In this document: piece after piece, positions 18,228 to 56,138 of the stretch
Numbering within the stretch: the stretch's first letter is position 1
How the letters are laid out: the number at the start of each line of letters is the position of its first letter
From: an uncultured Acidobacteriota bacterium
GTDB lineage: Bacteria > Acidobacteriota > Vicinamibacteria > Vicinamibacterales > CAVVIG01
Length of the DNA stretch: 64,000 nucleotides
Direction: 5' to 3'
Assembly (NCBI GenBank): GCA_963750035.1
Contig: CAVVPE010000021.1
Location: forward strand, 10,795-74,794
Made by a program: the position numbers and the translations under genes
Notes under the pieces: generated by a model
What the model was told of the DNA's origin: nothing
Database searches by the model: none
What the model saw: the letters and a program-made list of their open reading frames with translations, nothing else

Positions 18228-19259
18228 CTACGGCGTCGCCGCCGTGCGGGCCAGCACCGTGCCGCTGCGCCGCGTCAGCTTCACGGCCAGCTCCGCCCAT
18301 GTGAACGGGCCTTCGGGCGCTTCGACGAGCAGGACGTAATGGCCGGCCAGCGCGCCGGTCAGGCGTTGCACGGCCCGGTCTGGAAAATGGAACGAGCGCT
18401 CGTAGAACCCGCCGGTTTCCTCCGACACCGACTGGAGCCCGACTTCGAGCGAGTGATAGTCGGCCTGCGTGACGTCGATCGAGAAGACGGCGGCACGCGC
18501 GCGCTGGAGCGCGGCCAGCGCTTCGTCGTAGCCCTTCTCCATCATCACGCCCAGGGCGGTGTAGCGGCCAAAGCCGTGGCCGAACAGCACGATCGATTTC
18601 GAGCCGGGCAGCGGCTCGAGCGCCTCCCCCATCAGCAGCAGGGCTTTCTCGATCGGATACGCCTTCCGCCCTGCCGCCTGAGTCAGGCGGCGCGTCAACG
18701 AAATCTCGGCGGTCGCTTCGCCGAGCGCCTTCGGCCGCTCGAGCAGGAGACCACGCTCCAGGATCCGCCGGATCTCTTCACGATCGCCGGTGAAGTCGGC
18801 CCAGATCTTCAGGTGTGAATCGAACGAGACGACCGCAACCCGGTCGTCGGGGCCGAGCGTCTCGAGAAACGTCTTCGCCCTGAACAGCATCCGCATCAGG
18901 CCGACGATGCGGCTCGGCTCGAGATCCTTCTGGAAGAGAAACACGATCAGCCGGCCCCGCGGCAGGCTTCCTTCCGGAAAACCTGGCGCGATCACCGACG
19001 ACGAGGCATCGGCGCCGGCCCCGACCCACACCGCCGACTCGACGCGAACCGGCTTGCCGTGGATCTTGACGGCGAAGTCGTCGGCGGTCAGATCCTGAAT
19101 CGCGCGGCCCATGCCATCGAGCGCCCGCACGTCGACGACGATTCGCGCGACGTCGACCCGGTCGGTGAACTGCGGCTGCTGCGGCGCCTGCGCGAGCGTC
19201 ACTACGGATGGACCGCGCCCACCAGGAGGATGAGGCGCTATTCCACAAGATGCAACCAC
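18228..19259 (-). CDS. VWA-domain protein (acidobacterial VWFA-related type)
   Basis: Intact ORF: DVARIVVDVRALDGMGRAIQDLTADDFAVKIHGKPV...RLIVFLFQKDLEP...DRVAVVSFDSHLKIWADFTGDRE...SIVLFGHGFG...AAVFSIDV. The N-terminal signal peptide is unclear; RLILLVGAV is in another frame and is followed by VVTLAQA. Confidence 0.8.
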   Translation of the reverse strand: MVASCGIAPHPPGGRGPSVVTLAQAPQQPQFTDRVDVARIVVDVRALDGMGRAIQDLTADDFAVKIHGKPVRVESAVWVGAGADASSSVIAPGFPEGSLPRGRLIVFLFQKDLEPSRIVGLMRMLFRAKTFLETLGPDDRVAVVSFDSHLKIWADFTGDREEIRRILERGLLLERPKALGEATAEISLTRRLTQAAGRKAYPIEKALLLMGEALEPLPGSKSIVLFGHGFGRYTALGVMMEKGYDEALAALQRARAAVFSIDVTQADYHSLEVGLQSVSEETGGFYERSFHFPDRAVQRLTGALAGHYVLLVEAPEGPFTWAELAVKLTRRSGTVLARTAATP

Positions 19260-19336
19260 GAAGATCGCGAAGACTCGAAGAAATCCAGATCCGAAGATCA
19301 GGTTCTTCGCGTCTTCGTAGCCTTCGTGGCTTGCAT
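19250..19336. repeat. 87-nt imperfect hairpin built from CGAAGA / TCTTCG units (8-9 nt period)
   Basis: ATGCAACCACGAAGATCGCGAAGACTCGAAGAA...CCGAAGATCAGGTTCTTCGCGTCTTCGTAGCCTTCGTGGCTTGCAT. The outer 14 nt are near-perfectly complementary. A TTTTTT run follows on the plus strand. Confidence 0.7.
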
Positions 19337-19358
19337 TTTTTGCGACTCGTAGCGAGCC

Positions 19359-19998
19359 TTACTTGCCTGTCGACAGGCTGAATATGAATCCCGCACTCGA
19401 GCTTCTGGCCGCCCCACCGGCCCGAACGGGGGTTGAGCGGATCGAGCGGCACGGTCGTGCAGGGCTCGCAGCCGATGCTCGAGTAACCGGCGTCGTACAG
19501 CGGCAGCAGCGGGATGTCATGGGCCTTCGCGTAGCTCCACACATCCTTGGTCGTCCACATCGCCAGCGGACTGATTTTCATCAGGTGCTTCCCGCTGGGC
19601 AGCCGGAAGTCTTCCACCGGCTCGAGACTCGCGCGGCTGGGCGACTGCTCGCGCCGCAGGCCCGTGAACCAGGTGTCGTACGCCTCGAGCGCGCTGAACA
19701 GGGGGCCGACCTTGTGCCTGGCGCAGCAGTCCGTCGTGCTCGTCTGCCAGAGGCCCACGCTCGGCTCCGCCGCGCGCAGATTGACGATGTTCAGGCTCCA
19801 CCGCGCGGCCAGCTCGTCGCGGTAGGCCAGCGTTTCGGCAAAGTGATGGAACGTGTCGAGGAACAGGACCGGGATGTCGGGCCTGACCTGACGCAGCAGG
19901 TCGACGACCACGACGTCCTCTGCCTGAAAGCTGCACGTCAGGCAGGGGGCCGCCGACGACTGAAGGGCGTCCGCGACAACTTGAGTGACATCCGTCAC
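19359..19998 (-). CDS. cysH: assimilatory adenylyl-sulfate (APS)/PAPS reductase CysH, Fe-S type
   Basis: GTG 19998 overlaps the cysN stop (GTGA). Motifs: VLFLDTFHHFAETLAYRDEL, CCARHKV, SIGCEPCT and KLECGIH (ends at 19384). Track ORF 18778..19998 has no in-frame stop and would overlap the VWA gene by about 480 nt. A TAA in the neighbouring frame at 19361-19359 is the likely true end. Confidence 0.85.
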
Positions 19999-21320
19999 AG
20001 CAGCAGCTCCTCCAGCGCCTGGCGCACGGCGGCGATCGCTTCCGCCTCGCTGCCGGCGCCCCGCGCCGCCCGCGCAATGCGCTCAGCAACAGTGGGTCGC
20101 TGCGTGGCCGCGGGGGCGTCCTCGCTGACCACCGACGAGATCATCCCGGCGCCCGCCGTGAAGTTGGTCGTTGGATCGATCAGGATGAAGCTGCCGGTGC
20201 CGCGATTGTCGGCATACGTGTCGAAGAAGAGCGGGCGCGCCGCCGAGATCACCACCGATCCGATCTGATTCAGCACCAGTCCGCGATCGACCTGCGCCTT
20301 CACCGTACGCGTCGTGTGCTTCAACAGGTAGACGCGTGCCGGATCGAGCGGTCGCTCGTCCATCCAGACGACGTCGGCGCGGAAGCGTTGGCCGATGCTC
20401 GGACTCGCCCACGACTCAGCCCCCGACGCGCTCGCCAGCATGTCGCCGCGGCTGATGTCGATCTCGTCGTCCAGGGTGACCGTGACCGACATGCCGGCGT
20501 GCGCCACGTCGAGATCGCCGTCCCAGGTGACGATCCGGTTGACGCGCGTCGCACGGCCCGATGGCCACGCCATCACGACGTCGCCGGGGCGGACCGAACC
20601 CGAGGCAATCTGGCCGGCATAGCCGCGGAAATCCTGGCTGGGGCGGAGCACGAGCTGCACCGGGAACCGGAACGGCTTGCCAACCGCGCTGTGATCGACC
20701 TGCACGGTCTCGAGGAACTCGAGCAGCGCGATCCCGTCGAACCACGGGGTGCGCGGGCTGCGCGTGATGACGTTGTCGCCTTCGAGCGCGCTCATCGGGA
20801 TCGCGTGAATGTTGGCACCTGGCAGCAGCTTCTCGAACTCGTCGGTGATGTTCTCGAAGACATCCTGGTCGAAGTCGACCAGGTCCATCTTGTTCACGGC
20901 GAGCACGTAGTCGTTGATGCCGAGCAGGCGCGCGATCTGCGCGTGCCGCCGCGACTGCGCGCGCACGCCGTTGCGCGCGTCAACCAGCAGGATGGCGACG
21001 TCGGCGTTCGAGGCGCCGGTGGCCATGTTGCGCGTGTACTGCTCGTGGCCGGGCGTGTCGGCGAGGATGAACTTGCGGCGGGCGGTCGCGAAGTAGCGGT
21101 AGGCGACGTCGATCGTGATCCCCTGCTCGCGCTCGGCGCGCAGGCCGTCGGTGAACAGCGAGAAGTCGATCGGCCCCGCGGTCCGGTTCTTCGACGCCTT
21201 CTGGACCGAGTGGACCTGGTCCTCGTAGACCGATCGCGAGTCGTACAACAGCCGCCCGATCAGCGTGCTCTTGCCATCGTCGACGCTGCCGGCCGTGCAG
21301 ATCCGCAGCAGGCCCGACAT
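19995..21320 (-). CDS. cysN: sulfate adenylyltransferase subunit 1 (GTPase), no APS-kinase domain
   Basis: ORF 19995..21902 trimmed to ATG 21320, which overlaps the cysD stop (TGATG). Motifs GSVDDGKST, DTPGHEQY and NKMD. The frame is intact. Confidence 0.93.
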   Translation of the reverse strand: MSGLLRICTAGSVDDGKSTLIGRLLYDSRSVYEDQVHSVQKASKNRTAGPIDFSLFTDGLRAEREQGITIDVAYRYFATARRKFILADTPGHEQYTRNMATGASNADVAILLVDARNGVRAQSRRHAQIARLLGINDYVLAVNKMDLVDFDQDVFENITDEFEKLLPGANIHAIPMSALEGDNVITRSPRTPWFDGIALLEFLETVQVDHSAVGKPFRFPVQLVLRPSQDFRGYAGQIASGSVRPGDVVMAWPSGRATRVNRIVTWDGDLDVAHAGMSVTVTLDDEIDISRGDMLASASGAESWASPSIGQRFRADVVWMDERPLDPARVYLLKHTTRTVKAQVDRGLVLNQIGSVVISAARPLFFDTYADNRGTGSFILIDPTTNFTAGAGMISSVVSEDAPAATQRPTVAERIARAARGAGSEAEAIAAVRQALEELLL

Positions 21321-22270
21321 CAGAAGTAGCCCTCGCGCTTCTTCAGCTCCATCGACCCGTCCTGATCGTGGTCGATGATGCGGAGCTGACGCTCCGAGTT
21401 CTTGGTGACGATCAGCTCCTCGATGATCTTCGGCACGGTGTCGGCCTCCGACCGGATCGCGCCGGTGCACGGCGAGCAGCCGAGCGACCGCATGCGGCAC
21501 ATGATGCGCTGGGGCCGCTCGCCCGGCAGCAGCGGCACGAACGGCTGCTCGAGCGTGATCAGCGATTCGCCGCGGACGACGACCTCGCGCTCCCTGGCGA
21601 AGTAGAGCGGCACGACCGGAATGTTCTCGAGGTGGATGTAGCTCCAGACGTCGATCTCGGTCCAGTTGGACAGCGGGAAGACGCGGATGCTCTCGCCCGG
21701 GCGCACGCGGCTGTTGAGCAGCTGCCACAACTCCGGCCGCTGGTTCTTCGGATCCCACTGCCCGTTGGCGTCGCGCAGCGAGAAAATCCGCTCCTTGGCG
21801 CGCGATCGCTCCTCGTCGCGCCGTGCGCCGCCGAACGCGGCGTCGTAGCCGCCGGCCGTCAACGCATCGAGGAGCGACTTCGTCTTGAGCGCGCCGCAGC
21901 ACGCCTTGGTGCCGACGAGGAATGGCTGCGTGCCGTCGGCGATCGCCTCGGTGTTGGTGTGGACGATCAGCCGCGCGCCGATCTCCGCGGTGTACCGATC
22001 GCGGAACTCGATCATCTCGCGGAACTTGTAGGTGGTATCGATGTGAAGGAGCGGGAACGGAATGGAGCCCGGATAGAACGCTTTCTGCGCCAGGCGCAAC
22101 AGGACCGACGAGTCCTTGCCGATCGAATACAGCATCACCGGCCGCTCGAACTCGGCCACCACCTCGCGCATGATGTGGATCGCTTCGGCCTCGAGCGCGC
22201 GCAGATGGGTATCGTTCGAGGACACTACCCCGTCAATCACGCGGGTTTCCGGGAGCATCGCTACAGCCAT
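21320..22270 (-). CDS. cysD: sulfate adenylyltransferase subunit 2
   Basis: Intact 316-aa ORF: [16 protein letters not shown] (PP-loop), [20 protein letters not shown], ending [16 protein letters not shown]. Confidence 0.95.
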
Positions 22271-22285
22271 AAGTGAATCATCTCT

Positions 22286-22320
22286 GCCGTTCGTCGTTCG
22301 GGCGTTCGTCGTTCGTCGGC
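22286..22320. repeat. CGTTCGT heptamer array between the leader terminator and the cysD start
   Basis: GCCGTTCGTCGTTCGGGCGTTCGTCGTTCGTCGGC. The first 23 nt are identical to the reverse complement of 56116-56138. Confidence 0.65.
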
Positions 22321-22351
22321 CAAAAACAAAAAAGCCCGGGTTGCCCCGGGC
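22321..22351 (-). terminator. intrinsic terminator in the cysD leader
   Basis: The minus strand reads GCCCGGG GCAA CCCGGGC followed by TTTTTTGTTTTTG, ending about 50 nt upstream of the cysD ATG. Confidence 0.7.
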
Positions 22352-22476
22352 TTCAGGTCTCTTCTTTGTGTTGGGTGTCGCTTACTGGATATTCGTCAGC
22401 GAACCTGGACCTGTCGCACGGGGACCATCGGGGTCCTTGTACAACAACAGGCGCAGGTCGCGGCTCCGAACATCTG
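22325..22476 (-). ncRNA. candidate cis-regulatory leader RNA (attenuator/riboswitch-like) or small RNA upstream of cysDNH
   Basis: About 150 nt lie between a sigma70-like promoter and the terminator. The segment contains the hairpin GGACC-CCGAU-GGUCC (22422-22436). It also has two GACCUG copies (22454-22459 and 22354-22359, the latter abutting the terminator) that can each pair with a single CAGGUC (22408-22413). No known riboswitch class was recognised. Confidence 0.4.
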
Positions 22477-22482
22477 AACCCT

Positions 22483-22513
22483 ATATTAAGCGGGTCCGGG
22501 GGCAGGCTGTCAA
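22483..22513 (-). promoter_or_regulatory. sigma70-like promoter candidate (TTGACA, 18-19 nt spacer, TAATAT)
   Basis: The minus strand reads TTGACAGCCTGCCCCCGGACCCGCTTAATAT. The spacer is 1-2 nt longer than optimal. Confidence 0.4.
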
Positions 22514-22670: not shown

Positions 22671-23663
22671 TCAGCGGCTGGCGAGAGAGCGCCTCGCGGA
22701 ATGCACGGCAAGGACGACGAGCGCGATTGTCGCGGCGTACGCCGCACCGCTCAACGGACCCAATGTAAAGCCGGCCCAGCTGACCGACTGAGGCGCGTTC
22801 GTCACCAGCAACAGAATCGCAACCGCAATACCCATCGGCCTCGCGGGAACGTACCGAATCACCCAAGCTGCCAGCGGCGCGGCCACCACGCCGCCCGCAA
22901 GCATCGATAACAACACACGGCCGTCGACTCCCGCGACGCCAAGCGATCCGATCAGCGTAAACGCCGAAGCCGACGCCACCGCAACCTCCGCCGTATTGAC
23001 CGAACCAATCGCGAAGCGCGGACGCACGGCCCGGTTCAGAAGATACGGTGTCACCACCGGGCCCCATGCTCCGACCAGGCCGTTCGTGACGCCGCCCAGC
23101 AGTGCCGCGATCGGCGTCCCCCGCGGATGCGAGTGATCGATTCCGCGAGGCTGGCGAGCCAGACGGTTCCGGCGCCGGAAGTCCTTCTTGGCCAGGCCCT
23201 GGTTGCTCAGCAACACGGCGAGCGGCGGGCCGGAGATCGTCGTCACCGCGTAGAGGATGCCAACGCCGCCGCCGAAGACCGCGCCGACGCGCGCGCTCGG
23301 CCCGGATCGGCCGGCGGAAGCCCGCCGGCCTGCAGCAGGATCAGCGGCAGCAGGACGACGAAGGTGATGAACTTCAGCCAGGACGGATTCACCTGCGACA
23401 CGATCGCCGTGCCGATCGGCGACGCCGGGAAGCAGGCCAATCACGATCGGCAACACGCCGCCGCCAGACCGCCGGCAGCGACGCGCCGATTCACCCAGAG
23501 GACGTACGCGTTCAGGACGACCTCGATCGGCACGAGCGCGGGGTTCAGGACGCGATTCGACAGGAACAGCAGTGCGAGCGGGACGGTAATCGACAGAGAA
23601 GCCGTAGCCGAGGGCTCCGTTGACGATCGCCGCGAGGAAGGTGATCGACGAGAGGAATATCAC
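22671..23663 (-). CDS. TauE/SafE-family sulfite/anion exporter, frameshifted
   Basis: ORF 22671..23663 has the N-terminus MIFLSSITFLAAIVNGALGYGFS and the C-terminal half GVGILYAVTTISGPPLAVLLSNQGL...LLGGVTNGLVGAWGPVVTPYLLN...GVVAAPLAAWVIRYVPARPMGIAVAILLLV. The middle part (IGTAIVSQVNPSWLKFITFVVLLPLILLQAGG) is in ORF 23243..23440. Confidence 0.7.
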   Translation of the reverse strand: MIFLSSITFLAAIVNGALGYGFSVDYRPARTAVPVESRPEPRARADRGRPERVRPLGESARRCRRSGGGVLPIVIGLLPGVADRHGDRVAGESVLAEVHHLRRPAAADPAAGRRASAGRSGPSARVGAVFGGGVGILYAVTTISGPPLAVLLSNQGLAKKDFRRRNRLARQPRGIDHSHPRGTPIAALLGGVTNGLVGAWGPVVTPYLLNRAVRPRFAIGSVNTAEVAVASASAFTLIGSLGVAGVDGRVLLSMLAGGVVAAPLAAWVIRYVPARPMGIAVAILLLVTNAPQSVSWAGFTLGPLSGAAYAATIALVVLAVHSARRSLASR

Positions 23664-23759
23664 CGGCGCAGCCCTGCCAAGGTATTCATGGAGTTACCAG
23701 CCGCTCTCCCGAGCAAGCCGCTAAGGGTAACACCACGAGCAGCCACCTCGGTTCGCTTG

Positions 23760-24815
23760 TCACCGCGCCGCACGCAACCCCGCCCAGTCGATCTTGAGTT
23801 TTCGCATCCTGGCGCGGAGCGTATGTGGGTTGATCTCGAGCAGCCGTGCGGCACCGTGCGGCCCCTCCACGCGGCCCCGCGTCTCGCGGAGCGCTGCTTC
23901 AATATGGCGCCGCACCACGACATCGAGCGGCTCGATTCCCCCGGGGCGCGCCGCCTCTGAACCGGTCGGCGGCGGCGGCGACGTCCATGGACGTTGCCCC
24001 AGCGCGGCCGCGACATCCAACGTTCGCCCCTGCCCGACGAGGACAGCGCGGTCCATCACGGCCGCCATCTCTCGGACATTCCCCGGCCACCGGTACTCGG
24101 TCAGCAGCCGAACGTCATCATCTGAGACCGAAACCGGCCGCACGCCAAAGCGGTCAGCGGCGCGTGCGGCGAAGTACTCGGCGAACGCCCTGATGTCGCC
24201 GGGTCGGTCGCGGAGCGGAGGGATGACGATCGGAAACACCGCGAGCCGATAGTAGAGGTCCTCGCGAAAGACCTGCCCCTCGACCAGCGCCGGCAGATCG
24301 CGATGAGTGGCGGCGACGATCCGGACGTTGACATGCACGGCCCGGTCTCCGCCCACGCGAACCACCTCCCCGTCTTGCACGACACGCAGCAAGCGCACCT
24401 GGGCGGCCGGCGCCAGTTCTCCAACCTCGTCGAGAAAAAGGGTGCCGTTATCCGCCTGCTCGAACCAGCCCCGGCGCCGCGCAACCGCGCCGGTGAATGC
24501 GCCTGGCTCGTGCCCGAACAGCTCCGAGTCGATCAGCTCGGGCGAGATGGCGCCGCAATTGACCCGACGGAATGGCCCGTTCCGGAAATGGGAGTGCTCG
24601 TGGATGGCGCGAGCGATGATCTCCTTTCCAGTCCCGGTCTCACCAAACAGCAGGACCGGAGCGCTGCTCCTGGCAACCATCCTGGCGCGTGTCATGACGA
24701 CGGCGAGGCCGGTGTCGGCGCCGATCAGGCGGTCCTCCTCGGAGCGGGGGGCGCCATGGATCAGGTGTTCGGGCAGCGCCGCCGGGCGTGGCGCACCCTT
24801 TAGCTTCTGTGACAT
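23760..24815 (-). CDS. sigma54-dependent transcriptional activator (AAA+ plus Fis-type HTH) without an N-terminal sensory domain
   Basis: Intact ORF: LLFGETGTGKE (Walker A), GHEPGAFTGA (GAFTGA loop), GTLFLDEVGEL, YRWPGNVREM, and the C-terminal HGAARLLEINPHTLRARMRKL. Only about 40 aa precede the AAA+ core. Start is ATG 24815 (alternative 24863). Confidence 0.88.
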   Translation of the reverse strand: MSQKLKGAPRPAALPEHLIHGAPRSEEDRLIGADTGLAVVMTRARMVARSSAPVLLFGETGTGKEIIARAIHEHSHFRNGPFRRVNCGAISPELIDSELFGHEPGAFTGAVARRRGWFEQADNGTLFLDEVGELAPAAQVRLLRVVQDGEVVRVGGDRAVHVNVRIVAATHRDLPALVEGQVFREDLYYRLAVFPIVIPPLRDRPGDIRAFAEYFAARAADRFGVRPVSVSDDDVRLLTEYRWPGNVREMAAVMDRAVLVGQGRTLDVAAALGQRPWTSPPPPTGSEAARPGGIEPLDVVVRRHIEAALRETRGRVEGPHGAARLLEINPHTLRARMRKLKIDWAGLRAAR

Positions 24816-25091
24816 ATGCTTGAATTTTCCGTCTTTTTTAACGGATATTCCAGAACATATCACGGTTCTTCACGAAAGCCTCGCATCCACGCCCTGAGCG
24901 CGGCGGCCCGCGGGTTGCACATCCTCGCGCCAGTGTTCTCCCTCGCCATCCGCTGTCGCCGCCGATCGTGCGCCTGTCGGCCCACGTGTAGACGGCCGAC
25001 GACCGGCTGGTGAGCGTGGTCCCTCCAAAGCACCCTCGAGACCTTCCCTCCCCCGAGTCGATCGGCTGACGCGTTCACGCAGTCAGGGATC

Positions 25092-25106
25092 TGGCGCGTC
25101 CGTGCA
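25092..25106 (+). promoter_or_regulatory. weak sigma54 -24/-12 candidate TGGCGCG-N4-TGCA (GG to GC spacing one nt short)
   Basis: CTGGCGCGTCCGTGCATGG lies 35-50 nt upstream of the receptor ATG at 25140. Consensus is TGGCACG-N4-TTGCW. Confidence 0.2.
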
Positions 25107-25139
25107 TGGACAGCCGGTGCAGAGCGTCGAGGAGAGACG

Positions 25140-27734
25140 ATGAGATCGGATCAATCAGATCACAGGGAGTTTCGTCGCGTTCATCATCGCGGCGCTGCCG
25201 ATGCTGGCCGCCGGCCAGGACGCTCGCCCGGGCCCAGTACCTCGTCGTCCGGGATTCGTCGGGCGCGGCCATGCCCGGCGTCACCATCAAGATCATCAAT
25301 GAAGTCACCACGGCCGGCATCGAAGGCGTGAGCGATGCCGAAGGCCGCTATCAGGCGGGTCCGCTCATCGCCGGTCCGTACCGTGTCGAGGCCATGCTGG
25401 ACGGCTTCGAGCCGGTCCTGCGCAGGGTCGCGATCGACGACGCTCAAACGAGCGCGATTGAGCTGACCCTTCACCCGTCGCGGCTCTCGGAGTCGGTGGT
25501 GGTGACCGCGCGGCGCGTCGAAGAGGTCGCGCAGGAGGTGCCGATTCCGGTGTCGGTGGTCAGCGGCGCGCTCGCCGCCGCGACCGGCAGCTTCAACGTC
25601 AACCGCCTGAAGGAGCTGATCCCGACGGTTCAGTTCTACTCGTCCAACCCGCGCAACACGGCGATCAACATCCGCGGCCTCGGCGCGCCGTTCGGCCTCA
25701 CCAACGACGGCATCGATCCTGGCGTCGGTTTCTATATCGACGGCGTTTACTACGCGCGGCCGGCGGCGGCCACTCTGGATTTCATCGATCTGGAGCGGAC
25801 CGAAGTGCTGCGCGGTCCGCAGGGCACGCTCTACGGCAAGAACACGACTGCAGGCGCCATCAACATCACCACGCGCAAGCCGACGTTCGCGCCGGAGAGC
25901 CGGATCGAGCTCACGTTCGGCGGCCTGGATCTGGTGCAGGCGAAGGCCTCGGCCTCGGGACCTCTGTCGCAGACGGTGGCCGCACGACTCTCGTTTTCGG
26001 GCACGACGCGACGCGGGACGATCGGCCACGTCGGCACCGGCGAGGACCTGAACGGGCTGAACAATCTCGGCTTCCGCGGACAGGTCCTCTATACGCCCTC
26101 GTCGAAGACGGCGGTGACCCTCTCCGCCGACAACACGCGGCAGCGCCCGCGCGGCTATGCGCAGGTGGTCGCCGGTGTCGCGCCGACTGAGCGCGTCGCG
26201 AGTCGCCAGTACGCGCAAATCGCCGCCGACCTGCACTACAGCCCGCCGAGCTTCGACGCCTTCGATCGGCTGAGCGATGCCGACACCCCGCACCGCGCAG
26301 ATCAAACTCTCGGCGGCGCCTCGGTGGCGATCGAACGGGCGCTCGGCGCCGGTCGCCTGACGTCGATCACCGCCTGGCGCTATTGGGATTGGGACCCGTC
26401 GAACGATCGCGACTTCCTCGGCCTGCCGGTGACCACCATCTCGGCGAATCCCTCGACACAGCGGCAGTGGACGCAGGAGGTGCGCTACTCCGGCAGTGCT
26501 GGGCACGACATCGGCGTCGTCGCCGGCGCGTTCCTGTTTCACCAGACGATTGATTCGACCGGACGACAGGAGCAGGGTGCGGCGGCCGCGCGCTTTCTGC
26601 TCGCGCCGACCCCAGCAGCCGCGACACCCGGCCTGCTCGATGGCTACGGTCAGACCTCGGACATTCACTCGAGCAACCTCAGCGCGGCGCTGTTCGGCCA
26701 GCTCGAATGGCCGGTCACCGACCGCCTGCGCCTCCTGCCCGGTCTCCGCTTCAACTACGACGACAAAGCCGTCGACTACCGCGCCGAGGTCTATGGTGGA
26801 CTTGCCACGGATGATCCCGTGCTCGTCGCACTGCAGCGCTCGATCCTGGCGCCCCAGGCCTATCAGGCCGGCGCCGCAGACACCAACCTCTCCGGCCAGT
26901 TGACCGCCGCCTACCGGCTGAACCCCCGCATGAACGGCTACGCGACCTACGCGACGACTTACAAGCCAATCGGGTTGAATCTCTCCGGGGTGCCCACCGA
27001 CGCGTTGGGCCGCCCAGCCCTCGAAGTCGCCGCGGTGAAGCCCGAGCAGGAGCGGCATCTCGAGGCCGGACGTCAAGACCGAGCCGGCGCCCGGCATCAC
27101 CGCGAATGTCACCCTCTTCGACACAAACATCCGCGACTACCAGGCGAACGTCGTCAACGCGCAGGTCGGCGTGCTGCGCGGCTACCTCGCCAACGCCGAG
27201 GAAGTGCAGGTGCGGGGCGTCGAGGTTGACAGTAGCGTGCGCGTCAGCCGGAGGATGTCTGTCTACGCCGCGGTCGCCTACACCGAAGGCAAGTACGTCT
27301 CATTCCCCGATGCGCCGCCGCCGCTCGAGGAGACCGGCGGCCCGCAGGTGAAGGACATCTCCGGCTCGGACCTCCCCGGCATCTCCCCCTGGGCGCTCTC
27401 GATCGGGGGCGAGTACGCGCAGCCGGCGGCCCTATTCGGCACGCGAGGCGAGGTGTTCGCCGGACTCGACGGCAGCTATCGCTCGTCGTTCTCGTCGAGC
27501 GCCACCGCGTCGCGATTCCTCGTCATCGACGGCTACGGGCTGCTGAACGCCCGCCTCGGATATCGCTGGGGGGACGGCTGGTCGCTGTCATTCTGGTCGC
27601 GCAATCTGCTGGACCAGGACTATTTCGAACTGCTGTCGGCGGCGCCGGGCGGCTCCGGATTGTACGTCGGGCTGCCAGGCGATCCCCGCACGGTTGGCGT
27701 ATCGCTGCAGATAGCCATCCCATCGAACAAGTGA
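25140..27734 (+). CDS. TonB-dependent receptor with N-terminal carboxypeptidase-regulatory-like domain, frameshifted
   Basis: The signal peptide [17 protein letters not shown] is in a neighbouring frame. ORF 25106..27229 gives [23 protein letters not shown]...[22 protein letters not shown], then the plug [22 protein letters not shown]...[28 protein letters not shown] switch near 27070 leads to ORF 27171..27734 (barrel end ...[10 protein letters not shown]...DQDYFELLS...). Confidence 0.8.
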
Positions 27735-28772
27735 GGTTGAATGTGAAAGGCCGTCTCGCGTGGATCCCGGCGGCGGCCGTTGCGGTGGCGTGCGGCGGGT
27801 CGCCGAGCCGTGAGACGAGCGCTGGCGCGCCGGTCGAACTGCTGAACGTGTCGTACGACCCCACCCGCGAGCTCTACCAGGAGGTCGACGCGGCGTTTGC
27901 GGAGCGGTGGCGGGCCAGGACCGGCCAGACGGTTTCGATCCGGCAGTCGCACGGCGGCTCCGGCTCGCAGGCTCGGTCGGTCATCGACGGCCTCACGGCC
28001 GACGTCGTGACGCTCGCCCTCGCCTACGACATCGACGCCATGGCCAAGAGCGGACTCCTCGATGCCGCATGGCAGCAGCGGCTTCCGGACAACAGCGCGC
28101 CCTACACGTCGACGATCGTGTTTCTCGTGCGCAAGGGCAATCCGAAGGGCATCAGGGACTGGGCAGATCTCGATCCAGCCGGGCGTGTCGGTGATCACTC
28201 CCAATCCGAAAACCTCTGGCGGCGCGCGCTGGAATTACCTGGCGGCATGGGGATACGCGCTGCGGCAACCCGGCGGCAGCGAGCAGACGGCCCGCACCTT
28301 CCTCACGCAGCTCTTCGCCAACGTGCCGGTGCTCGATTCCGGCGCGCGCGGCGCCACCAATACGTTCGTCCAGCGCGGCATCGGCGACGTGCTCCTGGCG
28401 TGGGAGAACGAGGCGTACCTGGCCGTCGAAGAAGCCAAGGACCGAATCGAGATCGTGGTCCCTTCCGTCAGCATCCTTGCCGAGCCGCCGGTCGCCGTCG
28501 TCGACAAGGTCGTCGACAGGAAAGGGACTCGCGCCGTCGCCGAGGCGTATCTGCAGTTCCTCTACACGCCCGAGGGCCAGGCGATCGTGGCGAAGCACCA
28601 TTACCGGCCGCGAGACACGAAGGTCGCCGCCAGTGTCGCGGGCGCATTCGCCGACGTGGAGCTGTTCACGATCGACGACGTGTTCGGCGGCTGGCAGGCG
28701 GCGCAAGCGACGCACTTCGCCGACGGCGGCACGTTCGACCAGATCTACAAGCCGGCGGGGAGCTCGCGGTGA
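27731..28772 (+). CDS. sbp: sulfate/thiosulfate ABC transporter substrate-binding lipoprotein, frameshift near 28170
   Basis: GTG 27731 overlaps the receptor stop (GTGA). Lipobox [33 protein letters not shown]...[33 protein letters not shown] continues in ORF 28062..28772 ([29 protein letters not shown]...[15 protein letters not shown]). Confidence 0.85.
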
Positions 28773-56073: not shown

Positions 56074-56138
56074 TGTCGTTCGACGTTCGTCGTTCGTCGG
56101 GATCTCGTCGAACGTCGAACGCCCGAACGACGAACGGC
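56074..56138. repeat. inverted arrays of CGTTCG(T/A) heptamers filling an 87-nt intergenic spacer
   Basis: TGTCGTTCGACGTTCGTCGTTCGTCGGG ATC TCGTCGAACGTCGAACGCCCGAACGACGAACGGC. Positions 56077-56089 pair perfectly with 56109-56121 (13 bp), and alternative slipped registers exist. Confidence 0.75.

What the first reader, a model, noticed from the sequence alone, without database searches (positions are those of the whole stretch)
22321..22513. Structured leader with promoter, competing helices and intrinsic terminator upstream of cysD-cysN-cysH: candidate sulfur-responsive attenuator or riboswitch
Seen on the minus strand. There is a TTGACA / TAATAT promoter-like pair (22513-22483) followed by about 150 nt of RNA. 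The RNA contains a GGACC-CCGAU-GGUCC hairpin and a long-range pairing option between GAUGUUCGG..GCGACCUG and CAGGUUCGC..UGACGAAUAUC. It also has two GACCUG copies (22454-22459 and 22354-22359) competing for one CAGGUC (22408-22413). The second GACCUG abuts a strong terminator (GCCCGGG-GCAA-CCCGGGC plus a U run) that ends about 50 nt before the cysD ATG. Established. Terminator/antiterminator competition in a 5' leader is the hallmark of riboswitches and attenuators. To my knowledge no ligand-sensing RNA has been established for the sulfate-activation genes in this kind of lineage, and the sequence does not match the SAM-I, SAM-II or T-box cores I can recall. Inference. It is either a new cis-regulatory RNA sensing a sulfur metabolite or a stand-alone small RNA.
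Basis: partly seen in the sequence, partly recalled or inferred. Interest (0 to 1): 0.65.

Follow-up and report, generated by a model that had tools for sequence, protein, structure and literature searches.

The report
Cysteine-sensing leader-peptide attenuator of cysDNH
The structured RNA in front of the sulfate-assimilation genes cysD-cysN-cysH contains a 25-codon mini-gene with four cysteine codons. It most likely lets a translating ribosome, not a ligand-binding RNA, sense cysteine supply and decide whether transcription stops at the terminator; this is a classical kind of switch that I found no report of for this soil phylum.

Summary
The fold is far more stable than shuffles (z -5.8).

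A covariance model finds the element in 71 of 118 genomes of the family (Vicinamibacterales, Acidobacteriota). I examined 69 of these hits. All carry an in-frame ORF with 3-9 Cys codons. All lie directly before cysD (43) or a sirC-cobA-sulfite reductase operon (26).

The hairpin that holds the Cys codons, the terminator, and an antiterminator that sequesters six of the seven core bases of the terminator's 5' arm all show compensatory changes. No Rfam family matches.

My verdict is a classical ribosome-mediated transcription attenuator tuned to cysteine, probably on a near-leaderless transcript. It is neither a riboswitch nor primarily an sRNA. It is a new member of a known kind; the closest known are the mycobacterial polycysteine short ORFs and the Rhodobacterales cysS uORF. 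All evidence is computational, and no RNA data could be obtained. Interest is moderate.

The parts
22508..22513 (-). -35 box TTGACA
   Evidence: Read. Conservation in the genus begins exactly here. A TTGAY box lies 37-44 nt (mode 40) upstream of the leader start codon in 53 of 68 homologues.
22483..22488 (-). -10 box TAATAT (19-nt spacer; alternatively TTAATA 22484-22489 with an 18-nt spacer)
   Evidence: Read and conserved in the genus. It was not flagged because that scan only allows spacers of 16-18 nt. It puts the transcription start about 22474-22478, that is 0-5 nt before the ATG. This is an inference; no RNA data were available.
22396..22473 (-). Leader ORF, 25 codons plus TGA: MFGAATCACCCTRTPMVPVRQVQVR
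   Evidence: An in-frame homologous ORF is present in 69 of 69 elements examined. An ATG lies in the Cys frame in 55 of 68, against 3 and 5 of 68 in the other two frames. The stop codon is conserved in position but varies in identity (TGA, TAA, TAG).
22441..22455 (-). Regulatory codons TGC GCC TGT TGT TGT (Cys-Ala-Cys-Cys-Cys)
   Evidence: Relatives show in-frame TGY insertions (CACCC, CACCCC, CCCCCC) and synonymous TGT/TGC changes. A strict scan of the whole 3.5-Mb assembly for a Cys run plus a terminator returns only this site.
22388..22474 (-). Region 1:2, the long anti-antiterminator hairpin. Its 5' arm holds the start codon and the Cys codons, and its 3' arm holds the antiterminator 5' arm.
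   Evidence: The hairpin alone folds at -43.7 kcal/mol. On 30 homologues the terminated-state structure is 84.5% paired, with 133 compensatory cells and 0 of 500 shuffles as good. RNAalifold on an independent MAFFT alignment recovers the UGCGCx/GYGC helix and the apical hairpin.
22422..22436 (-). Apical hairpin GGACC-CCGAU-GGUCC immediately after the Cys codons
   Evidence: 98.7% of cells paired across 30 homologues. The paralogous sirC-type leaders replace it with GGGCUC..GAGCCC, so the hairpin is kept while the peptide is not.
22408..22423 (-). Antiterminator 5' arm CCCCGUGCGACAGGUC (region 2)
   Evidence: It pairs with 22344-22359. The duplex energy is -23.6 kcal/mol against -20.2 for the terminator. 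On an alignment not fitted to this pairing, 86.5% of cells are paired against at most 55.6% when the partner is slid, with 17 compensatory cells and 0 of 500 shuffles as good.
22344..22359 (-). Antiterminator 3' arm GACCUGAAGCCCGGGG (region 3), overlapping the terminator 5' arm
   Evidence: It sequesters 6 of the 7 core bases of the terminator 5' arm (G22351, C22350, C22348, G22347-G22345).
22322..22354 (-). Intrinsic terminator (regions 3:4): stem GAAGCCCGGG / CCCGGGCUUU, loop GCAA, tail UUUUUUGUUUUU
   Evidence: 10 pairs, 7 of them G-C; -20.2 kcal/mol. 99.7% of cells are paired across 30 homologues.
21320..22270 (-). cysD (sulfate adenylyltransferase small subunit), the first regulated gene
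   Evidence: NCBIfam NF009214, 464 bits against a cutoff of 413.
19995..21320 (-). cysN (large subunit); its ATG overlaps the cysD stop (TGATG)
18778..19998 (-). cysH-like PAPS/APS reductase. The open frame runs on past the conserved domain.
   Evidence: NF002537 and Pfam PF01507 cover only residues 6-207 of 406.
22671..23663 (-). Upstream TauE/SafE-family anion permease gene. Any read-through from it would also meet the terminator.
   Evidence: Pfam PF01925, E 5.6e-11. No terminator-like site lies between its stop and the leader.

Best explanation
This is a classical ribosome-mediated (leader-peptide) transcription attenuator whose regulatory codons are cysteine codons. A promoter at 22513-22483 starts a transcript that begins at, or a few bases before, the ATG of a 25-codon ORF. 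The proposed mechanism has three states. (1) When Cys-tRNA(Cys) is plentiful, the ribosome runs through UGC-GCC-UGU-UGU-UGU to the UGA at 22398-22396. Behind it, the Cys-codon strand re-pairs with the CCCCGUGCGACAGGUC strand (hairpin 1:2). The terminator at 22354-22322 then forms and transcription stops 51 nt before cysD. (2) When charged tRNA-Cys is scarce, the ribosome stalls on the Cys codons and covers the 5' strand of hairpin 1:2. The freed CCCCGUGCGACAGGUC pairs with GACCUGAAGCCCGGGG as soon as that is transcribed. This takes away the terminator's 5' arm, and RNA polymerase reads into cysD-cysN-cysH. (3) When no ribosome loads, hairpin 1:2 and the terminator both form, so the default state is off. 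What is shown: the ORF, its conservation, the three helices and their covariation, and the exclusive association with sulfate-assimilation operons. What is inferred: the transcription start, translation of the ORF, stalling, and the in vivo response.
For: The ORF with four Cys codons in five is in the window. The element occurs in 71 of 118 family genomes and 30 of 43 genera. All 69 elements examined have an in-frame short ORF of 20-59 codons (median 29) with 3-9 Cys, about 20% of residues, against about 1.1% in long ORFs of the genome. An ATG lies in the Cys frame in 55 of 68, against 3 and 5 of 68 in the other frames. The length of the Cys run changes by whole TGY triplets, and TGT/TGC changes are synonymous. 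The stop codon keeps its position but changes identity. The downstream gene is cysD in 43 elements and sirC-cobA(-sulfite reductase) in 26. In other families of the order and class, similar leaders precede cysH, sirC, tauE and cysD. The same genome carries a second Cys leader before sirC-cobA-sir on contig C3. Structure support is as follows. The terminated state is 84.5% paired with 133 compensatory cells. The antiterminator is 86.5% paired against at most 55.6% when slid, with 17 compensatory cells. The energies are ordered as in the trp leader: 1:2 -43.7, antiterminator arms -23.6, terminator -20.2 kcal/mol. There is no Rfam hit at gathering threshold; the best weak hits are driven by the terminator and include Trp_leader.
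Against: The start site rests on a promoter with an unusual 19-nt spacer. In this genus an AGGG/AAGGA lies 5 nt before the ATG, so a short Shine-Dalgarno-led start cannot be excluded. Equilibrium folding of the full RNA keeps the terminator under every ribosome mask, so the switch must be kinetic, as in known attenuators. A count of terminator-arm bases paired upstream did not beat shuffled controls in this GC-rich sequence. The other two frames are also often free of stops across the same span (46 and 54 of 68), so openness alone proves nothing. The stop codon lies 10 nt past the CAGGUC arm, so a terminating ribosome masks only part of region 2.
Confidence: 0.85

Rival explanations
1. A metabolite-binding riboswitch: SAM, cysteine, APS/PAPS, sulfite or O-acetylserine binds the folded leader and selects the terminator or the antiterminator.
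For: There is a strong, conserved fold with mutually exclusive helices. The element sits in the 5' leader of sulfur genes. No known riboswitch class occupies these genes in this lineage.
Against: Almost all conserved bases are accounted for by Cys codons, start and stop codons, or helix strands. There is no conserved multi-helix junction or conserved unpaired pocket. The only conserved unpaired stretch is (UGY)n, and it varies by whole triplets in frame with an ATG. Paralogous leaders keep the Cys run and the switch but replace the hairpin sequences.
Confidence: 0.03
2. Primarily a stand-alone, trans-acting small RNA of about 150 nt, with its own promoter, a 5' stem-loop, a CA-rich single-stranded linker and a Rho-independent terminator. 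Its position next to cysD would be incidental or secondary.
For: It has its own promoter-like boxes and a strong terminator. The linker CACCCAACACAAAGAAGAG is unpaired, and there is a weak AgvB-like hit (E 0.012, 25 bits against a threshold of 56).
Against: The linker is the least conserved part of the element across genera, which is the opposite of an sRNA seed. The element always lies on the same strand directly upstream of a sulfate-assimilation operon. The antiterminator covaries, which a pure sRNA would not need. A secondary trans role for the terminated transcript is not excluded.
Confidence: 0.04
3. Protein-mediated attenuation: a cysteine-responsive RNA-binding protein binds the UGY triplet repeat, as TRAP binds GAG/UAG repeats, and shifts the helix competition without translation.
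For: Tandem triplet repeats in the 5' strand of an anti-antiterminator resemble the TRAP site. Sequence alone cannot exclude such a protein.
Against: Some elements have as few as three triplets. The repeats have no spacers. The start codon lies in frame in 55 of 68 and the stop codon is conserved in position. There is a promoter-to-ATG spacing that leaves the ATG at the 5' end. No candidate binding-protein gene is linked to the element.
Confidence: 0.04
4. The terminator merely ends the upstream tauE-family gene, and the ORF and alternative helices are fortuitous.
For: No other terminator-like site lies between the tauE stop at 22671 and the leader.
Against: In relatives the element is present whatever gene lies upstream, always before cysD or sirC. 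Conservation begins at the -35 box rather than at the tauE stop. Covariation supports the alternative helices. The two roles are compatible with each other.
Confidence: 0.02

Closest known systems
Classical leader-peptide transcription attenuators of enterobacterial amino-acid operons (trpL, hisL, leuL, thrL, pheL, ilvL)
   Same: It has a short leader ORF with tandem codons for the end-product amino acid. It has four RNA regions forming 1:2, 2:3 (antiterminator) and 3:4 (intrinsic terminator). The regulatory codons lie in region 1, the energy ordering matches, and the default state without translation is off.
   Different: The amino acid is cysteine and the regulated genes are for sulfate activation and reduction, not an amino-acid operon proper. 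The start codon is at or within a few bases of the 5' end rather than Shine-Dalgarno-led. There is no sequence homology: Rfam Trp_leader scores 23.8 bits against a gathering score of 41. The phylum is Acidobacteriota.
Mycobacterial polycysteine leaderless short ORFs (Ms5788A, Rv2334A and others; the 'Cys ribulon'; Canestrari et al. 2020, bioRxiv 10.1101/834739)
   Same: These are unannotated short ORFs with consecutive Cys codons at the 5' end of leaderless transcripts. Several cysteine and sulfur operons each carry their own copy. A ribosome stalled on the Cys codons remodels downstream RNA structure.
   Different: [quoted passage not shown] Here a strong intrinsic terminator and a covarying antiterminator are the output. 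The two are unrelated in sequence and come from different phyla.
uORFC-8-2 motif upstream of cysS in Rhodobacterales (Brewer et al. 2021, PMC8632094)
   Same: It is a predicted ribosome-mediated transcription attenuator with a conserved AUG, tandem Cys codons inside the first stem, and a terminator with a U run.
   Different: It controls the tRNA synthetase gene cysS rather than sulfate assimilation. It has only two Cys codons, at positions 14-15. It occurs in Alphaproteobacteria. No Rfam family matched this locus, and I did not check whether uORFC-8-2 is itself an Rfam family.
Cys leader peptides upstream of cys/cbs operons in Actinobacteria (Seliverstov et al. 2005, PMC1262725)
   Same: These are short ORFs with runs of Cys codons upstream of cysteine biosynthesis operons, predicted by comparative genomics.
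   Different: Those lack any conserved terminator hairpin, and their mode of action was left open, with Rho-dependent termination suggested. Here all attenuator components are present.

Membership tests
Classical ribosome-mediated (leader-peptide) transcription attenuator | A short ORF in the 5' leader with clustered codons for the regulating amino acid | tested here: met
   The window ORF has four Cys codons in five. 69 of 69 homologous elements have 3-9 Cys codons. The frame is supported by the start codon in 55 of 68, against 3 and 5 of 68 in the other frames.
Classical ribosome-mediated (leader-peptide) transcription attenuator | An intrinsic terminator between the leader ORF and the first structural gene | tested here: met
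   Terminator at 22354-22322, 10 pairs plus a U run, -20.2 kcal/mol, 99.7% paired in 30 homologues.
Classical ribosome-mediated (leader-peptide) transcription attenuator | An antiterminator helix mutually exclusive with the terminator | tested here: met
   22423-22408 pairs with 22359-22344, at -23.6 kcal/mol. 86.5% of cells are paired against at most 55.6% when slid, with 17 compensatory cells.
Classical ribosome-mediated (leader-peptide) transcription attenuator | An anti-antiterminator (1:2) whose 5' strand contains the regulatory codons, so that a stalled ribosome frees region 2 | tested here: met
   The minimum-free-energy hairpin pairs the Cys-codon strand with the CCCCGUGCGACAGGUC strand. 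The UGCGCx/GYGC helix is recovered de novo with covariation.
Classical ribosome-mediated (leader-peptide) transcription attenuator | Stop codon placed so that a non-stalled ribosome prevents antiterminator formation | tested here: inconclusive
   The UGA lies 10 nt past the CAGGUC arm, and the stop follows the Cys run by 11-22 codons in all homologues. A footprint would cover only part of region 2, so re-formation of hairpin 1:2 behind the ribosome has to be assumed.
Classical ribosome-mediated (leader-peptide) transcription attenuator | Read-through increases when the cognate charged tRNA is limiting | not testable with these tools
Mycobacterial-type polycysteine leaderless sORF attenuator | The transcript begins with the start codon (leaderless) | tested here: inconclusive
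   The -35 box lies 37-44 nt upstream of the start codon in 53 of 68, which implies a 5' UTR of about 0-7 nt. No start-site data are available, and an AGGG lies 5 nt upstream of the ATG in this genus.
Mycobacterial-type polycysteine leaderless sORF attenuator | The output is unmasking of the downstream ribosome-binding site (translational attenuation, no terminator) | tested here: not met
   A strong intrinsic terminator with a covarying antiterminator is the output here. The cysD start lies 51 nt beyond it in a repeat-rich, weakly structured spacer.
Known riboswitch or RNA leader families in Rfam 15 (SAM-I to SAM-VI, T-box, Trp/His/Leu/Thr leaders and others) | A score at or above the family's gathering threshold | tested here: not met
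   There were no matches in the whole window at gathering threshold. The best sub-threshold hits were AgvB at 25.3 against 56 and Trp_leader at 23.8 against 41, both aligned mainly to the terminator.
Hfq-type trans-acting sRNA | A conserved single-stranded seed region | tested here: not met
   The linker between hairpin and terminator is the most variable segment across genera.

The most novel reading that the evidence does not exclude
In Vicinamibacterales the ribosome itself may be the main sensor for the whole assimilatory sulfate-reduction pathway. Under this reading, a set of paralogous, near-leaderless Cys-codon attenuators independently gates cysDNH, sirC-cobA-sulfite reductase, cysH and tauE-type genes, as a transcription-termination 'Cys ribulon'. 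A 70S ribosome would load on a 5'-terminal AUG or GUG in a race with formation of a hairpin that buries that codon. The abundant terminated RNA of about 150 nt, or its Cys-rich 25-residue peptide, could in addition have a function of its own.
Probability: 0.25. Interest if true: 0.55.

Novelty: new member of a known kind. Interest (0 to 1): 0.4.

Why it matters
Acidobacteriota of the Vicinamibacterales are abundant, mostly uncultured soil bacteria whose gene regulation is almost unknown. [quoted passage not shown] This element gives a concrete, testable regulatory logic for their sulfate assimilation. It extends cysteine-codon attenuation from Actinobacteria and Alphaproteobacteria to a third phylum and to the sulfate-activation genes. 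It supplies about 70 aligned examples with covariation, from which an RNA family could be defined. It also marks unannotated small ORFs that gene callers miss. It does not overturn any principle.

Tried and rejected
(1) Rfam at gathering threshold and at E up to 10 gave only sub-threshold, terminator-driven hits.

(2) The consensus promoter scan found nothing because the spacer is 19 nt. The boxes were confirmed by reading the sequence and by conservation.

(3) I folded the complete leader at equilibrium with the ribosome-covered stretch masked, at the first Cys, the last Cys and the stop. The terminator stayed in every case. This is uninformative, because attenuation is decided co-transcriptionally.

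(4) I folded transcripts truncated before the terminator's 3' arm. The number of terminator-arm bases paired upstream was not better than with a shuffled middle segment (6.7 against 5.7). I dropped this metric in favour of covariation of the specific antiterminator.

(5) Stop-codon content of the alternative frames is weak evidence in 67% GC DNA: only 22 and 14 of 68 have stops. I replaced it with the start-codon frame test.

(6) My first alignment used the wrong strand of the loci and was redone.

(7) Some weak covariance-model hits were false positives with no Cys ORF: L041, L042 and L045, and the hits outside the class, L048, L051, L054, L057 and L058.

(9) Literature searches for this element in Acidobacteria or Vicinamibacterales found nothing. 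The library lacks many subscription journals, for example Lopatovskaya et al. 2010 in Mol Biol, so prior description cannot be fully excluded.

Full report
THE OBSERVATION. TTGACA lies at 22513-22508 and TAATAT at 22488-22483. The spacer is 19 nt, which is why the consensus scan, limited to 16-18 nt, reported no promoter. The apical hairpin is GGACC-CCGAU-GGUCC at 22436-22422. A long hairpin closes with GAUGUUCGG pairing to CGAAUAUC. GACCUG occurs at 22459-22454 and at 22359-22354, and CAGGUC at 22413-22408. A terminator with ten pairs plus UUUUUUGUUUUU lies at 22354-22322, 51 nt before the cysD ATG. The 158-nt RNA folds at -67.5 kcal/mol, against -45.3 +/- 3.8 for dinucleotide shuffles (z -5.84; 0 of 200 shuffles as stable).

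Read as codons from the ATG at 22473, the RNA encodes MFGAATCACCCTRTPMVPVRQVQVR and stops at the TGA at 22398-22396. The conserved 'loop' UGC GCC UGU UGU UGU (22455-22441) is Cys-Ala-Cys-Cys-Cys. This is the signature of a leader-peptide attenuator for cysteine, placed in front of genes whose pathway ends in cysteine.

IS IT A KNOWN RNA FAMILY? Rfam 15 has no match in the window at gathering threshold. With permissive settings, only terminator-driven sub-threshold hits appear: AgvB at 25 bits against 56, and Trp_leader at 24 bits against 41.

CONSERVATION. BLAST finds the element in all four genomes of the genus and in one other genus. A covariance model built from those five sequences finds it in 71 of 118 genomes of the family and in 30 of 43 genera. 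With lower sensitivity it finds hits in at least five other families of the order and one other family of the class. An exact degenerate pattern search of 185,579 species genomes returned 21 loci. Twenty are titled Acidobacteriota, Vicinamibacteria or Vicinamibacterales MAGs, and one is titled only 'uncultured bacterium'; none is assigned to another phylum. That names the lineage.

I examined 69 hits in detail, and every one has an in-frame short ORF with 3-9 Cys codons. The ORFs run from 20 to 59 codons, with a median of 29 codons and 6 Cys. In long ORFs of this genome Cys is about 1.1% of residues. The Cys run grows and shrinks by whole TGY triplets (CACCC, CACCCC, CCCCCC, CCCCCCC), and TGT/TGC differences are synonymous. 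An ATG lies in the Cys frame within 60 nt upstream of the run in 55 of 68 sequences, against 3 and 5 of 68 for the other two frames. This rules out the alternative Val (GUU) or Leu (UUG) readings of the repeat. In an independent MAFFT alignment the stop codon occupies one column but varies between TGA, TAA and TAG. TGT makes up 55% of Cys codons in the leaders and about 23% in long ORFs of the genome.

The apparent peptide conservation after the run (T-R-T-x-x-V-P-A) is most simply a by-product of RNA constraints. The codons are invariant at all three positions (AGG ACC ... GUC CCC), use rare codons for a 67% GC genome, and are exactly the hairpin and antiterminator strands. The paralogous class replaces both the hairpin sequence (GGGCUC..GAGCCC) and the peptide (G-L-..-S-P) while keeping a hairpin. 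This point is an inference.

GENOMIC CONTEXT. Among the 30 best loci, 29 have cysD immediately downstream, and the thirtieth has sirC-cobA. Among 39 further hits, 14 precede cysD and 25 precede sirC-cobA. Where sequence extends further, that operon continues into a sulfite reductase (Pfam NIR_SIR). Outside the family, Cys-run leaders with terminators precede cysH-like reductases, sirC, a TauE-family gene and cysD. A strict scan of the window's own assembly (3.5 Mb, 59% complete) for a Cys run followed by a terminator returns only this locus. A more diverged second leader lies before sirC-cobA-sir on contig C3 of the same genome. Its peptide is VIRGACVCRCCRMGICGE..., its GTG is at C3:18309, and its terminator is near 18449-18480. 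The element is therefore one copy of a small regulon of sulfate-assimilation operons.

STRUCTURE AND SWITCH. On 30 homologues the terminated-state structure (long hairpin plus terminator) is 84.5% paired. It has 133 compensatory cells in 33 pairs, and no shuffle or slid control comes near. That alignment was fitted to this structure, so I also ran RNAalifold on a plain MAFFT alignment. It recovers the terminator, the apical hairpin and the helix between the first Cys-Ala codons (UGCGCx) and GYGC.

The antiterminator pairs CCCCG.GC..CAGGUC (22423-22408) with GACCUG..GC.CGGGG (22359-22344). The alignment was not fitted to this pairing. It is 86.5% paired against at most 55.6% when the partner is slid, with 17 compensatory cells (UA/CG, CG/AU, GC/AU) and 0 of 500 shuffles as good. 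It sequesters six of the seven core bases of the terminator's 5' arm. The energies are -43.7 kcal/mol for hairpin 1:2, -23.6 for the antiterminator arms and -20.2 for the terminator. This ordering matches the classical design.

Equilibrium folding never removes the terminator. This is expected, because the decision is made before the terminator's 3' arm is transcribed. When the RNA is truncated at the terminator loop and the ribosome-covered stretch is masked, the minimum-free-energy structure is the antiterminator described above.

MECHANISM. The helices, the codons and the context are shown; the dynamics are inferred.
- A ribosome that stalls on the Cys codons covers the 5' strand of hairpin 1:2, including GGACC. 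This releases GGUCCCCGUGCGACAGGUC, which captures the nascent GACCUGAAGCCCGGGG. The terminator cannot form, and cysDNH is transcribed.
- With ample Cys-tRNA the ribosome moves on to the UGA. The Cys-codon strand re-pairs with region 2, and the terminator forms.
- Without translation the same terminated fold forms.

Read-through from the upstream tauE-family gene would also be stopped here, since no other terminator-like site intervenes.

NEAR-LEADERLESS START. A TTGAY box lies 37-44 nt (mode 40) upstream of the start codon in 53 of 68 leaders. With normal promoter geometry this leaves a 5' UTR of about 0-7 nt and usually no Shine-Dalgarno sequence. The sirC-type leaders mostly start with GTG at 38-39 nt. 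In the window's genus an AGGG/AAGGA lies 5 nt before the ATG, right after the -10 box, so a short Shine-Dalgarno-led start cannot be excluded.

COMPARISON WITH WHAT IS KNOWN. The architecture is that of the enterobacterial trp, his, leu, thr and phe leaders, which I cite from established knowledge. Cysteine-codon versions are known in three settings. Actinobacterial cys/cbs leaders lack terminators (PMC1262725). Mycobacterial polycysteine leaderless short ORFs act by unmasking a ribosome-binding site and form a 'Cys ribulon' (bioRxiv 10.1101/834739). The uORFC-8-2 attenuator precedes cysS in Rhodobacterales (PMC8632094). I found no description for Acidobacteriota or for cysDN, and Rfam has no model that matches. 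Earlier notes of this scan reached the same reading for related genomes. They are not independent evidence, and I formed my reading before seeing them.

VERDICT. The sensor, however, is a ribosome on a cysteine-codon leader ORF, not a ligand-binding RNA or an sRNA. It is a new member of a known kind. My confidence in the mechanism is about 0.85, on purely computational evidence, and the interest is moderate.

Noticed in passing
window 22274-22320 (-), between the terminator and the cysD ATG: The spacer consists of CGAACGA/ACGAA-type short repeats (GACGAACGACGAACGCCCGAACGACGAACGG). Relatives have different but similarly repetitive ACGAA/CGAAG/CACGAA units at the same place (G002, G003, G023). 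The function is unknown. It could be an unstructured translation-enhancing spacer, a protein-binding site or a genus-specific repeat. Another reader noted a 23-nt reverse-complement copy at 56116-56138.
   Followed up: partly
same genome, contig C3 about 18270-18489 (outside the window): A second, diverged Cys leader lies directly before sirC-cobA-sulfite reductase. It has TTGACG 39 nt upstream of a GTG, the peptide VIRGACVCRCCRMGICGEALPSF..., a terminator GGCCCGGAAGC..GCUUGCCGGGC plus a U run, and an antiterminator that pairs CUUCCG with CGGAAG. The covariance model did not detect it.
   Followed up: partly
window 22671-28772: There is a sulfur-gene neighbourhood. A TauE/SafE-family permease lies at 22671-23663 (-) and a sensor-less sigma-54 activator at 23760-24863 (-). 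Divergent from these is a TonB-dependent receptor (25106-27229, +). No Cys leader was found upstream of the receptor operon (the model has a single hit in the genome).
   Followed up: no
window 18778-19998 (-): The cysH-like ORF is 406 codons long, but the PAPS/APS-reductase domain covers only residues 6-207. The frame runs on into the next gene (VWA-domain protein, 18228-19259). This suggests a missing stop or an assembly error in the MAG.
   Followed up: no
loci L008, L010, L011, L018, L022, L031 (cysD of related MAGs): tblastn splits cysD into two adjacent pieces in different frames in several relatives. These are probably single-base indel errors in long-read MAG assemblies rather than real pseudogenes.
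   Followed up: no
alignment A5, columns about 108-145 (for example L013, L014, L017, L025): Most genera other than the window's have an extra small hairpin CCGC...GCGG between the leader stop codon and the antiterminator 3' arm. The window's genus has instead an unpaired CA-rich linker.
   Followed up: no
leaders of genus g16 (L087, L094, L095, L097, L102, L109, L110): A third leader subtype (..ACCCACCCMGS..PALYGRAASR) precedes a cysD that is only about 54% identical to the window's CysD. This suggests a second cysD lineage that carries its own Cys attenuator.
   Followed up: no
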